From the NCBI RefSeq assembly GCF_017348835.2, contig NZ_CP071375.1: a stretch of DNA of 64,000 nucleotides; one strand, given 5' to 3'. Below are positions 57,703 through 58,067 of this stretch, piece after piece. Under the pieces are notes generated by a model, which searched no databases, had not been told where the DNA came from, and was given only the letters and a program-made list of their open reading frames with translations. Both the position numbers and the translations under genes were made by a program. The DNA comes from Escherichia coli (GTDB taxonomy: Bacteria > Pseudomonadota > Gammaproteobacteria > Enterobacterales > Enterobacteriaceae). Each line of letters begins with the position of its first letter. Within the stretch, counting starts at the first letter, position 1.

Positions 57703-58067
57703 ATGTCGGATGCGTCGCGTGGCGCATCCGACACCATGCGCCGATGCCTGATGCGACGCTGACGCGTCTTATCATGCCTACAGGTCTGAACCGTAGGTCG
57801 GATAAGGCGTTCGCGCCGCATCCGACACCGTGTGCAGATGCCTGATGCGACGCTGACGCGTCTTATCATGCCTACAGGCCTGAACCGTAGGTCGGATAAG
57901 GCGCTCGCGCCGCATCCGACACCGTGCGCAGATGCCTGATACGACGCAGGCGCGTCTTATCATGCCTACAGGCCTGAACCGCAGGTCGGATAAGGCGTTC
58001 GCGCCGCATCCGACACCATGCGCCGATGCCTGATGCGACGCTGGCGCGTCTTATCATGCCTGCCCAC
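57703..58067. repeat. BIME/REP array (about 3.5 tandem ~98-bp units)
   Basis: Repeated GCCTGATGCGACGCTGACGCGTCTTATCATGCCTACAGG...GTAGGTCGGATAAGGCG...GCATCCGACA; phantom ORFs on both strands. Confidence 0.9.

What the first reader, a model, noticed from the sequence alone, without database searches (positions are those of the whole stretch)
57703..58067. Tandem BIME arrays create CRISPR-like periodicity and phantom ORFs
Between prpE and codB about 3.5 copies of a ~98-bp unit, each made of two inverted REP palindromes, are repeated; a similar three-unit array lies between yahG and yahI. They produce overlapping ORFs on both strands with RCRMRRERLIRP-like peptides, which are almost certainly not genes.
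Basis: partly seen in the sequence, partly recalled or inferred. Interest (0 to 1): 0.25.

Follow-up and report, generated by a model that had tools for sequence, protein, structure and literature searches.

The report
Known REP/BIME repeat array after prpE
The repeats between prpE and codB are an ordinary E. coli BIME-2 array: alternating Y and Z2 REP hairpins in a 94-bp unit whose copy number runs from 1 to 8 between strains, and the open reading frames it creates are by-products of the repeat, not genes.

Summary

**Where and what.** The window is E. coli, 100% identical to strain PE164. Between prpE (stop at 57698) and codB (start at 58215) lie eight palindromic units at 57704-58063:
- one Y-derived perfect hairpin, 5 nt after the prpE stop codon;
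- four Z2 REPs on the + strand, alternating with three Y REPs on the - strand;
- linkers of 11-13 nt.

The period is 94 bp (not ~98), with 3.6 copies at 93% identity. This is the defining layout of a BIME-2.

**Other evidence.**
- Three units score above Rfam's threshold for naRNA4, a family built on BIME-2 units.
- Across complete E. coli genomes the same locus holds 1 to 8 Z2 copies in 94-bp steps. Two is the commonest number.
- In some strains IS621 sits in the last Z2 REP.

**Second array.** The yahG-yahI array (38128-38395, 93 bp x 2.9) is real but of a different class: Y/Z1 with short linkers, an 'atypical' BIME. It is K-12's REP23, the rejected gene yahH.

**The ORFs.** In the prpE-codB array they change frame at every unit, match no protein family, and are not annotated in any genome examined.

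**Function and score.** A role as a 3'-UTR stabiliser and partial terminator is inferred from published work on other BIMEs, not shown here. Novelty: already known. Interest: low.

The parts
55812..57698 (+). prpE (propionate--CoA ligase), last gene of prpBCDE. The array lies in its 3' untranslated region.
   Evidence: ORF list; RefSeq annotation of the 100% identical strain PE164.
57704..58063 (.). The whole BIME-2 array: 8 palindromic units, 94-bp period, 3.6 copies.
   Evidence: TRF, the repeat finder, unit dissection.
57704..57733 (.). Y-derived perfect palindrome, TGTCGGATGCG-TCGCGTGG-CGCATCCGACA. It consists of two Y-REP head arms, has no GTAG/CTAC foot and no stem bulge, and begins 5 nt after the prpE stop codon.
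   Evidence: Sequence; REP scan and fold, -12.8 to -14.9 kcal/mol. It scores below threshold against naRNA4 (46.8 bits).
57745..57781 (+). Z2 REP no. 1.
   Evidence: 35/37 identical to the Z2 consensus; hairpin -14.8 kcal/mol.
57793..57827 (-). Y REP no. 1 (inverted).
   Evidence: 31/35 identical to the Y consensus; hairpin -19.2 kcal/mol. It carries the locus-specific compensatory pair change C-G to T-A.
57839..57875 (+). Z2 REP no. 2.
   Evidence: 35/37 identical to the Z2 consensus.
57887..57921 (-). Y REP no. 2 (inverted).
   Evidence: 30/35 identical to the Y consensus.
57933..57969 (+). Z2 REP no. 3.
   Evidence: 34/37 identical to the Z2 consensus.
57981..58015 (-). Y REP no. 3 (inverted); its foot reads GCAG instead of GTAG.
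   Evidence: 29/35 identical to the Y consensus over 57983-58015; sequence.
58027..58063 (+). Z2 REP no. 4, the last unit; its foot reads CTGC instead of CTAC.
   Evidence: 34/37 identical to the Z2 consensus over 58027-58061.
57796..57872 (+). naRNA4-like unit 1 (Y hairpin, head-to-head linker, Z2 hairpin).
   Evidence: Rfam RF02564, 73.3 bits against a gathering score of 59.5.
57890..57966 (+). naRNA4-like unit 2.
   Evidence: Rfam RF02564, 69.3 bits.
57984..58060 (+). naRNA4-like unit 3.
   Evidence: Rfam RF02564, 73.2 bits.
57778..57963 (-). Spurious 61-aa ORF (MIRRACVVSGICARCRMRRERLIRP...). Sister ORFs lie at 57579-57869, 57872-58057 and 57966-58109 on the - strand, and at 57744-57845, 57832-57939 and 57932-58033 on the + strand.
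   Evidence: ORF list; frame analysis; no family hits; not annotated by PGAP.
58099..58127 (+). Promoter-like site (TTTGCA, 17-nt spacer, TATATT) 36 bp downstream of the array. It is a candidate codBA promoter from a consensus match only.
   Evidence: scan_promoters_terminators.
58215..59474 (+). codB (cytosine permease), the downstream gene on the same strand.
   Evidence: ORF list; annotation.
38128..38395 (.). Second array, between yahG and yahI: three repeats of Y(+), a 17-19-nt tail-to-tail linker and Z1(-), joined by the 11-nt head-to-head linker TTTGTCACCAT. Period 93 bp. This is an atypical BIME, equal to K-12 REP23/yahH.
   Evidence: TRF; REP scan, Z1 30/30 and Y 32-34/35; Rfam naRNA4 hits on the - strand at 78 bits; literature.
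38165..38413 (+). PGAP 'hypothetical protein' WP_053884098.1 (82 aa), a YahH-like repeat ORF lying almost wholly inside the yahG-yahI BIME array.
   Evidence: Annotation; translation; no family hit above cut-off.

Best explanation
**What it is.** The feature is a BIME-2, a 'bacterial interspersed mosaic element'. [quoted passage not shown] It lies in the 3' untranslated region of prpE, the last gene of the prpBCDE operon, and ends 36 bp upstream of a promoter-like site for codBA.

**Shown here.**
- The anatomy of the array.
- The REP class of each unit.
- The match of the units to the naRNA4 model.
- Locus-specific signature substitutions shared by all units, which indicate amplification in place.
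- Variation from 1 to 8 copies between strains, in steps of 94 bp.
- Sequence variation concentrated in loops and linkers rather than stems.
- The non-coding character of the ORFs.

**Inferred from published work on other BIMEs, and not tested here.**
- When the prp operon is transcribed, the array becomes a string of stable RNA hairpins. These are expected to protect the upstream prpE message from 3'-to-5' exonucleases. They are also expected to attenuate read-through into codBA, partly through Rho, producing a ladder of 3' ends.
- Every allele examined has a hairpin within 5 nt of the prpE stop codon. That is inside the <16-nt range in which REPs were reported to lower translation of the upstream gene by stalling ribosomes.
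- As DNA, the Y units are likely gyrase binding and cleavage sites.
- Copy number probably changes by slippage or unequal recombination between the 94-bp units, or by the REP-associated transposase TnpA(REP).
For: **Anatomy and class.**
- Period 94, 3.6 copies, 93% identity.
- Units align to the published Y and Z2 consensus sequences at 29-35 of 35-37 positions, each folding as a hairpin with an internal mismatch (consensus sequences from PMC11208160).
- Orientation alternates, with 11-nt head-to-head and 11-13-nt tail-to-tail linkers.
- Three units pass the Rfam gathering score for naRNA4.

**Copy-number variation.**
- Sequence-verified alleles carry 1, 2, 3, 4, 6 and 8 Z2 copies.
- A spread sample of 60 complete genomes gives 15 with one copy, 25 with two, 6 with three, 2 with four, 1 with five and 1 with six. 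In 8 more the two flanks lie more than 675 bp apart.

**Constraint on structure, not on codons.** Among 17 unique units, 5 of 46 stem columns vary against 14 of 38 non-stem columns (Fisher p = 0.008), with no codon periodicity.

**Termination.** No intrinsic terminator was found on the + strand between prpE and codB.

**Function by analogy.**
- REP325, a 12-hairpin Y/Z2 array between genes on the same strand, stabilises the upstream mRNA and attenuates the downstream gene about 8-10-fold, partly through Rho, and gives a ladder of transcripts. REP-containing tandem gene pairs have higher upstream/downstream expression ratios genome-wide (bioRxiv 10.64898/2026.03.23.713779).
- Gyrase cleavage sites are over-represented in BIME-2, mainly in the Y units (PMC6379681).
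- REPs fewer than 16 nt from a stop codon lower translation (Liang et al. 2015, as summarised in PMC12306157).
Against: **Function.**
- No expression, 3'-end, half-life, gyrase or translation data for this locus were available. No paper in the library mentions prpE together with REPs. All functional steps are therefore analogy.
- The same 2026 preprint stresses that REP effects depend on context and that terminal REPs do not lengthen mRNA half-lives in general.
- Strains do well with a single unit, so a long array is not required.
- The element may simply be tolerated selfish or neutral DNA.

**Anatomy.**
- The first hairpin is not a canonical REP (no foot, no bulge), so the published stop-codon-proximity effect may not transfer to it.
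- I could not check the linker sequences against the named S/s/l/r motifs of the original BIME classification, because those motif sequences were not in the papers I could read.
Confidence: 0.9

Rival explanations
1. The array is neutral or selfish repeat DNA (a REP/REPIN population maintained by the TnpA(REP) transposase and by slippage). It has no selected function at this locus, and its copy number drifts.
For: - Copy number ranges from 1 to 8 with no fixed value. O55:H7 has 6 copies and O157:H7 has 8.
- The yahG-yahI site is completely empty in one strain (L017).
- TnpA(REP) cleaves and recombines BIMEs in vitro, and amplification models exist (PMC3333891).
- REP effects on expression are reported to be variable.
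Against: - Every allele examined keeps at least one hairpin pair, and keeps a hairpin within 5 nt of the prpE stop codon.
- Stems are more conserved than loops and linkers, although gene conversion between units could also produce this.
- There is experimental evidence of regulatory effects for a comparable array, REP325.
- This rival concerns selection rather than identity, and is compatible with the element still having molecular effects.
Confidence: 0.3
2. The units are genes for naRNA4-like small RNAs that bind the nucleoid protein HU and help condense or bridge the chromosome.
For: - Three units on the + strand, the strand transcribed from prpE, pass the Rfam RF02564 gathering score at 69-73 bits against 59.5.
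- naRNA4 was described from the Y/Z2 array REP325 and co-purifies with HU (PMC4550694 abstract; introduction of the 2026 preprint).
Against: - The Rfam model is in effect a model of a generic BIME unit, so a match shows only that this is a BIME. The Y/Z1 array matches it too, at 78 bits.
- The 2026 preprint reports that deleting or over-expressing REP325/naRNA4 does not change nucleoid volume, and that REP-REP contacts are not seen in Hi-C.
- No promoter of its own was found. The only promoter-like hit inside the array is a weak 9/12 match within a REP.
Confidence: 0.1
3. The ORFs in the arrays are real, recently evolved repeat-protein genes (YahH-like) that are translated.
For: - Neuhaus et al. 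2016 report ribosome footprints over yahH (X002) in EHEC: RPKM 56, coverage 0.61 (PMC4765031).
- PGAP annotates a CDS in the yahG-yahI array of this strain, and 'protein YahH' or a hypothetical protein in about 25 of 54 sampled genomes.
- The 93-bp period there is a multiple of 3, so the frame is kept across units.
Against: **prpE-codB array.**
- The 94-bp period shifts the frame at every unit.
- No ORF is annotated there in any locus examined.
- There are no family matches.
- Substitutions show no codon periodicity.
- The start codon depends on a locus-specific REP variant.

**yahH.**
- The 'gene' is 0, 1, 3, 4 or 5 units long depending on the strain, and is absent in many.
- The Neuhaus table lists no mass-spectrometry peptides for it.
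- EcoCyc curators describe it as 'filled with REP23 sites'.
- Footprint reads on a multi-copy, highly structured repeat are prone to artefact (my inference).
Confidence: 0.04
4. The regular spacing reflects a CRISPR array or a degenerate remnant of one.
For: Only the superficial regularity of ~35-nt palindromic repeats at fixed spacing.
Against: - Successive repeats are of two types and are in opposite orientation.
- The intervening 11-13-nt segments are far shorter than spacers and are themselves repeated in every unit.
- The repeats match the genome-wide REP consensus and occur at four separate intergenic sites in the window.
- No cas genes are annotated anywhere in the 64-kb window.
Confidence: 0.01

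Closest known systems
BIME-2 family of E. coli (Gilson/Bachellier/Hofnung classification, as summarised by Ton-Hoang et al. 2012, PMC3333891)
   Same: - Alternating Y and Z2 REPs in inverse orientation.
- Short linkers and multiple tandem copies.
- Units at one locus nearly identical to each other.
- Copy number at the locus variable between strains.
- Extragenic position in a 3' UTR.
   Different: Nothing essential differs. There are locus-specific variants:
- the Y stem carries a compensatory T-A pair in place of C-G;
- the Z2 tail reads ATCATGC instead of ATCAGGC, which adds one stem mismatch;
- the first unit is a Y-derived perfect palindrome with no foot and no bulge.
REP325 / naRNA4 (Rfam RF02564): the 12-hairpin Y/Z2 array between yjdM and yjdN in K-12
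   Same: - The same unit type; three units pass the Rfam gathering score.
- The same sense orientation relative to the upstream gene.
- The same setting between two genes on the same strand.
- It is the best experimental model for what this array may do (stabiliser plus partial Rho-dependent attenuator).
   Different: - 8 hairpins here against 12 in REP325.
- Here the downstream genes probably have their own promoter rather than being part of the same operon.
- No expression data exist for this locus.
REP23 / yahH of E. coli K-12 (the yahG-yahI array)
   Same: The second array in the window is the orthologous locus, with 3 units here and 4 in K-12/DH1. The 93-bp in-frame period generates the YahH repeat ORF, which has been annotated, rejected, and re-annotated by PGAP.
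   Different: It is made of Y and Z1 REPs with 17-19-nt and 11-nt linkers, not Y and Z2. It therefore fits neither BIME-1 (single copy, long L linker with an IHF site) nor BIME-2, and falls in the 'atypical BIME' class.
CRISPR arrays
   Same: Only the regular spacing of short palindromic repeats.
   Different: - Repeat orientation and type alternate.
- The 'spacers' are 11-13 nt and are repeated rather than unique.
- There are no cas genes.
- The repeats belong to a family dispersed across the genome.

Membership tests
REP (repetitive extragenic palindrome / palindromic unit) of E. coli | A 30-40-nt imperfect palindrome matching the Y, Z1 or Z2 consensus. | tested here: met
   Seven units align at 29-35 of 35-37 positions to Y or Z2. 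The six units of the second array align at 30/30 (Z1) and 32-34/35 (Y) (consensus sequences from PMC11208160).
REP (repetitive extragenic palindrome / palindromic unit) of E. coli | A conserved GTAG/CTAC tetranucleotide at the foot, and a mismatch (bulge) in the stem. | tested here: met
   CTAC or GTAG is present in 5 of the 7 full units. The last Y and the last Z2 read GCAG and CTGC. Every predicted hairpin has the internal mismatch. The first element (57704-57733) lacks both features and is only REP-derived.
REP (repetitive extragenic palindrome / palindromic unit) of E. coli | Extragenic location, and many dispersed copies in the genome. | tested here: met
   All REP clusters in the window are intergenic: yahG-yahI, prpB-prpC, prpE-codB and codA-cynR. 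Array queries hit a median of 19-27 places per E. coli genome.
BIME-2 | Composed of Y and Z2 REPs in alternating (inverse) orientation. | tested here: met
   The order is Z2(+), Y(-), Z2(+), Y(-), Z2(+), Y(-), Z2(+), preceded by the Y-derived hairpin.
BIME-2 | Multiple tandem copies, well conserved within a locus, with a number that varies between strains. | tested here: met
   3.6 copies at 93% identity; 1-8 copies among strains in 94-bp steps.
BIME-2 | The named linker motifs: S between heads, and s, l or r between tails. | tested here: inconclusive
   The linkers are short (11 nt head-to-head, 11-13 nt tail-to-tail), as expected. I did not have the reference motif sequences to compare them with.
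BIME-2 | Bound and cleaved by DNA gyrase, mainly at Y units. | not testable with these tools
   Reported for BIME-2 in general (PMC6379681). I did not look up whether this locus appears in their data.
BIME-1 (considered for the yahG-yahI array) | One Y and one Z1 REP, present as a single copy, separated by a long L linker that often carries an IHF site. | tested here: not met
   The Y + Z1 composition is met. However, there are three tandem copies, and the tail-to-tail linker is only 17-19 nt. The array therefore falls in the 'atypical BIME' class as defined in PMC3333891.
naRNA4 (Rfam RF02564) | Sequence and structure score at or above the family's gathering threshold. | tested here: met
   73.3, 73.2 and 69.3 bits against 59.5 on the + strand; 78.0 bits twice on the - strand of the second array.
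naRNA4 (Rfam RF02564) | Expressed as a discrete RNA that binds HU. | not testable with these tools
   No expression data. The proposed role in nucleoid compaction is disputed.
CRISPR array | Direct repeats of one type in one orientation, separated by unique spacers of about 30 nt, usually with cas genes nearby. | tested here: not met
   The repeats are of two types in alternating orientation. The 11-13-nt linkers are repeated. No cas genes are annotated in the window.
Protein-coding gene (the repeat ORFs) | A reading frame maintained across the sequence, homology to a protein family, and conservation of the gene between strains. | tested here: not met
   **prpE-codB array.** The frame shifts at every 94-bp unit. 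There are no Pfam or NCBIfam hits. No codon periodicity is seen in the substitutions. The array is not annotated in any locus examined.

**yahG-yahI array.** The frame is kept (93 bp), but the ORF's length follows the unit number, it is absent from strains with 0-1 units, and its family hits are below the cut-offs.

The most novel reading that the evidence does not exclude
The 94-bp unit number at this locus (1 to 8 among sequenced strains) might act as a heritable, rapidly changing dial. It would set how much prpE message survives and how much transcription leaks from the propionate operon into codBA, so that natural E. coli lineages differ in propionate and cytosine metabolism with no change in coding sequence or promoter.

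A related possibility concerns the locus-specific Z2 variant ATCATGCCTAC, which all four Z2 units of this strain carry. It might make the array a poor target for the REP-seeking insertion sequence IS621, which is found only in units carrying the perfect target ATCAGGCCTAC.
Probability: 0.15. Interest if true: 0.3.

Novelty: already known. Interest (0 to 1): 0.07.

Why it matters
**Annotation and quality control.**
- REP/BIME arrays generate long, repeat-shaped ORFs. Annotation pipelines sometimes call these as genes: in this very strain PGAP calls one inside the yahG-yahI array.
- The arrays also trip repeat and CRISPR-style detectors.
- Recognising the class removes false gene calls.

**Biology.**
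- The locus is a clean natural series of 1-8 units, between an inducible operon and a downstream operon on the same strand.
- That series could be used to test the recent proposal that REP arrays are tunable 3'-UTR terminator-stabilisers.

Nothing here changes what is known about BIMEs.

Tried and rejected
- **CRISPR reading.** Rejected on anatomy and on the absence of cas genes.
- **Protein families for seven repeat ORFs.** The Pfam and NCBIfam searches gave nothing above the cut-offs.
- **Exact-sequence look-up of six repeat ORFs in the 15-billion-protein collection.** None was found. This is uninformative, because start-codon choice and strain variants change the exact string.
- **Intrinsic terminator after prpE.** None was found on the + strand. 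The T5 run after the last Z2 hairpin starts about 8 nt from the stem, too far for a canonical terminator.
- **REP annotation in K-12.** The copy of NC_000913.3 available here lists no repeat_region features for this stretch. I could not give the EcoCyc REP number of the prpE-codB array.
- **Literature on this locus.** No paper in the library holds both 'prpE' and 'repetitive extragenic'.
- **Liang, Rudd and Deutscher 2015.** The paper could not be read. It is cited only through PMC12306157.
- **Covariation in the stems within this locus.** The units are too similar for a meaningful count. I report instead the contrast in variability between stem and non-stem columns.
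Full report
**Where we are.** The window is Escherichia coli. The 801 bases around the finding are 100% identical to the chromosome of strain PE164, a pig isolate (NZ_CP114128.1). In that RefSeq record the flanking genes are prpE (window 55812-57698, +) and codB (58215-59474, +), with prpD upstream and codA downstream. The 516-bp intergenic region holds the feature.

- Tandem Repeats Finder reports an array at 57723-58061 with period 94, 3.6 copies, 93% matches, no indels and score 594.
- An independent repeat finder gives three 156-nt copies spaced exactly 94 nt apart, 92-93% identical.
- The second array is also real: 38128-38395, period 93, 2.9 copies, 94% matches. It lies between yahG (36697-38115) and yahI (38445-39395).
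- The REP head motif TGYCKGATRCG occurs 20 times in the window against 0.26 expected from shuffles, and 0 of 100 shuffles reach 20.
- The array folds far better than shuffled controls as RNA, with z = -5.75 on the + strand and -10.3 on the - strand.

**Anatomy of the prpE-codB array.** I compared each palindrome with the published Y, Z1 and Z2 REP consensus sequences (quoted in PMC11208160). The result is below.

| Element | Coordinates | Strand | Match to consensus |
|---|---|---|---|
| Y-derived perfect hairpin | 57704-57733 | . | REP-derived only |
| Z2 no. 1 | 57745-57781 | + | 35/37 |
| Y no. 1 | 57793-57827 | - | 31/35 |
| Z2 no. 2 | 57839-57875 | + | 35/37 |
| Y no. 2 | 57887-57921 | - | 30/35 |
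| Z2 no. 3 | 57933-57969 | + | 34/37 |
| Y no. 3 | 57981-58015 | - | 29/35 |
| Z2 no. 4 | 58027-58063 | + | 34/37 |

- The first element is two Y head arms around an 8-nt loop, without the GTAG foot and without the stem bulge. It starts 5 nt after the prpE stop codon.
- Head-to-head linkers are 11 nt (CCATGCGCCGA or CCGTGYGCAGA). Tail-to-tail linkers are 11-13 nt (AGGYCTGAACC...).
- All Y units share a compensatory stem change relative to the consensus (GTCGGAT...ATCCGAC instead of GCCGGAT...ATCCGGC).
- All Z2 units share ATCATGC instead of ATCAGGC.
- These locus-specific signatures indicate that the units arose by amplification in place rather than by independent insertions.

**Fit to the BIME-2 definition.** The layout is the published definition of a BIME-2. 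[quoted passage not shown] 2012, PMC3333891).

**Rfam.** Three units on the + strand (57796-57872, 57890-57966, 57984-58060) pass the gathering threshold of RF02564, naRNA4, at 69-73 bits against 59.5. That family was defined on one Y/Z2 unit of the 12-hairpin array REP325. The match therefore says 'BIME unit' and nothing more specific. The Y/Z1 units of the second array match it as well, on the - strand at 78 bits.

Alleles verified by sequence are listed below.

| Z2 copies | Strains |
|---|---|
| 1 | A10, 400660 |
| 2 | K-12 MG1655, SCU-115, 2014C-3051 |
| 3 | Ecol_AZ147 |
| 4 | this window (PE164) |
| 6 | ETEC6335 |
| 8 | O157:H7 Z1812 (TRF 7.6 copies) |

- Intergenic lengths run from 235 to 893 bp in steps of about 94.
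- I then searched with a query made of the two flanks only and took a spread sample of 60 complete genomes. The match spans correspond to one copy in 15 genomes, two in 25, three in 6, four in 2, five in 1 and six in 1.
- In 8 further genomes the flanks lie more than 675 bp apart. Two rows were odd.
- Of three 'split' cases that I opened, one is the 8-copy O157:H7 array and two carry an IS621 insertion.
- The sample is taken at even steps down a score ranking, so the proportions are approximate.
- O55:H7 DEC5A has 6 copies and O157:H7 has 8, so the number changes over short evolutionary distances.

**Are the ORFs genes?** In the prpE-codB array the evidence says no.
- The period is 94 = 3x31+1. 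The same peptide (…GMIRR…CRMRRERLIRP…RHDKTR…) therefore appears successively in frames 0, 1 and 2 of the - strand, and each ORF runs through about two units before a stop.
- The ATG that opens these ORFs is the reverse complement of the locus-specific ATCATG variant of the Z2 tail. Canonical Z2 REPs have no ATG there.
- None of the ORFs matches a Pfam or NCBIfam family.
- Among 17 unique units from ten strains, variable columns are concentrated outside the stems: 5 of 46 stem columns against 14 of 38 others (Fisher p = 0.008). They show no third-position excess, with counts of 6, 5 and 8 by position modulo 3.
- PGAP annotates no CDS inside the array in any of the 12 annotated loci I opened, apart from the IS621 transposase where that element is inserted. 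The same holds for the 38 locus rows.

**The yahG-yahI array is different.**
- It consists of three repeats of Y(+), a 17-19-nt tail-to-tail linker and Z1(-), joined by an 11-nt head-to-head linker.
- Y+Z1 is the composition of BIME-1. But BIME-1 are single-copy, with a long L linker that often carries an IHF site. A tandem Y/Z1 array with short linkers belongs to the 'atypical BIME' class.
- Its period of 93 is a multiple of three, so long in-frame repeat ORFs arise.
- PGAP does call one in this strain: WP_053884098.1, 82 aa, window 38165-38413. It calls 'protein YahH' or a hypothetical protein in about 25 of 54 sampled genomes, including K-12 DH1.
- This is the orthologue of K-12 REP23/yahH. 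EcoCyc curators describe it as 'filled with REP23 sites' (PMC11551758).
- Neuhaus et al. 2016 recount that yahH was removed from the annotation because of its structure. They nevertheless argue from ribosome footprints (RPKM 56, coverage 0.61) that it is translated in EHEC. Their table lists no mass-spectrometry peptides for it (PMC4765031).
- The 'gene' has 4 units in K-12, 3 here, 5 in EDL933 by their account, 1 in O26 RM8426 and none in strain F344, whose intergenic region holds no REP at all.
- I therefore regard it as a phantom. I record the footprint claim as the one piece of contrary evidence, and it concerns the second array, not the one in the finding.

**How it most likely works.** What is shown here:
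- the array's identity and structure;
- its amplification in place;
- its polymorphism between strains;
- its non-coding character.

Everything about function is inference from other BIMEs.
- The closest experimental model is REP325, a Y/Z2 array between two genes on the same strand. A 2026 preprint shows that it protects the upstream message and attenuates transcription into the downstream gene about 8-10-fold, partly through Rho. It yields a ladder of hairpin-ended transcripts. The preprint finds no effect on nucleoid compaction. Genome-wide, REP-containing tandem gene pairs have higher upstream/downstream expression ratios, but with a wide spread (10.64898/2026.03.23.713779).
- The setting here is comparable. 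The array follows the last gene of prpBCDE. No intrinsic terminator is detectable on the + strand. A promoter-like site for codBA lies 36 bp beyond the array at 58099-58127 (consensus match only).
- A hairpin begins within 5 nt of the prpE stop codon in every allele examined. In the B2-type allele (SCU-115) the stop codon TAG lies inside the GTAG foot of a full Y REP. REPs closer than 16 nt to a stop codon were reported to reduce translation of the upstream gene (Liang et al. 2015, read only through PMC12306157).
- As DNA, BIME-2 are preferred, transcription-independent gyrase cleavage sites, mainly in the Y units (PMC6379681).
- Changes in copy number are plausibly due to slippage or unequal exchange between 94-bp repeats, or to TnpA(REP), which cleaves and recombines BIMEs in vitro.

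**Rivals.**
- A purely neutral or selfish element with no selected role at this locus remains quite possible. It is not incompatible with the molecular effects above.
- An HU-binding naRNA gene is supported only by the Rfam match, and its proposed function is disputed.
- Real protein genes are unlikely, for the reasons given above.
- A CRISPR array is excluded by the alternating orientation and type of the repeats, the short repeated linkers, the dispersed family, and the lack of cas genes in the window.

1. The period is 94, not 98.
2. The two arrays belong to different BIME classes.
3. The likeness to CRISPR is superficial.
4. The yahG-yahI ORF is annotated by PGAP, and its translation has been claimed.

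The feature is a well-described class, and at the second locus a well-described individual element. It is already known and of low interest. Its practical value is as a warning for gene callers, and as a natural 1-to-8-unit series for testing the terminator-stabiliser model.

Noticed in passing
L009 about 1960-3250; L010, L012 and L013 at the equivalent position. The corresponding window site is the last Z2 REP, 58027-58063.: In four other E. coli strains (1368KP, AR436, bR_120_Kylling, LA3) the IS110-family element IS621, the 'bridge RNA' recombinase, is inserted in the last Z2 REP of this same array. The junctions are CTTATCAGGCCT|TGTATTATCC... and ...ACAGTAT|CTACCCACTG, which is its published natural target ATCAGGCCTAC with core CT (PMC11208160). 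In K-12-type arrays only the last Z2 unit has that perfect target. The internal units, and all four units in this window, read ATCATGCCTAC.
   Followed up: partly
L005 (strain 2014C-3051), last Z2 REP of the prpE-codB array.: The REP tail reads CTTATCAGTATCTACCCACTACCCACTG. This is the left part of the REP joined to the last 6-7 nt of the IS621 right end, in a lineage that shares the CCCACTA duplication with the IS621-carrying strain AR436. It looks like a deletion scar left by IS621, with microhomology CAG. Spans of 532-533 bp in O111:H8 rows suggest that the allele is common in that lineage.
   Followed up: partly
L004 (strain SCU-115); the 519-bp spans of UTI89 and other rows.: In this allele (I assign it to phylogroup B2 from memory; this was not tested) a full Y REP abuts prpE, so that the stop codon TAG is part of the REP's conserved GTAG foot. 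There is no Y-derived perfect hairpin. prpE is flagged as a pseudogene (internal stop) in SCU-115.
   Followed up: partly
window 38165-38413 (+): PGAP annotates a CDS (hypothetical protein WP_053884098.1, 82 aa) lying almost wholly inside the yahG-yahI BIME array. The orthologous ORF is named 'protein YahH' in K-12 and in many other RefSeq genomes, although it was earlier rejected as a REP artefact.
   Followed up: yes
L017 (isolate F344), yahG-yahI intergenic region.: This is an 'empty site': an 89-bp intergenic region with no REP at all. It carries instead a different short GC-rich inverted repeat (CCCTTCTCCC...GGGGAGAGGG). It shows that the whole BIME array at that locus is dispensable.
   Followed up: no
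window 52989-53076 and 60786-60866: Two further single REP pairs. One is a tail-to-tail pair inside the prp operon, between prpB and prpC: a Z2-like REP plus a hybrid unit with a Y-like stem and a Z2-like loop. The other is a Y/Z1 tail-to-tail pair between the convergent genes codA and cynR.
   Followed up: partly
window 41086-46183 (+): An ASCH-domain gene and a four-gene sugar/autoinducer-2-type ABC transporter lie between yahJ and yahK. They carry no K-12-style gene names in the annotation and may be a strain-variable insertion.
   Followed up: no
window 18623-18739 (-) and its surroundings, about 8000-23000: An ALIL pseudoknot (Rfam, 120 bits) marks the programmed frameshift of an IS3-family transposase. 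Nearby, PGAP lists an IS1B copy, a frameshifted integrase fragment, frameshifted hyxA and adhesin fragments, and fdeC with an internal stop. Elsewhere in the window (about 50545-51215) yahN is frameshifted.
   Followed up: no
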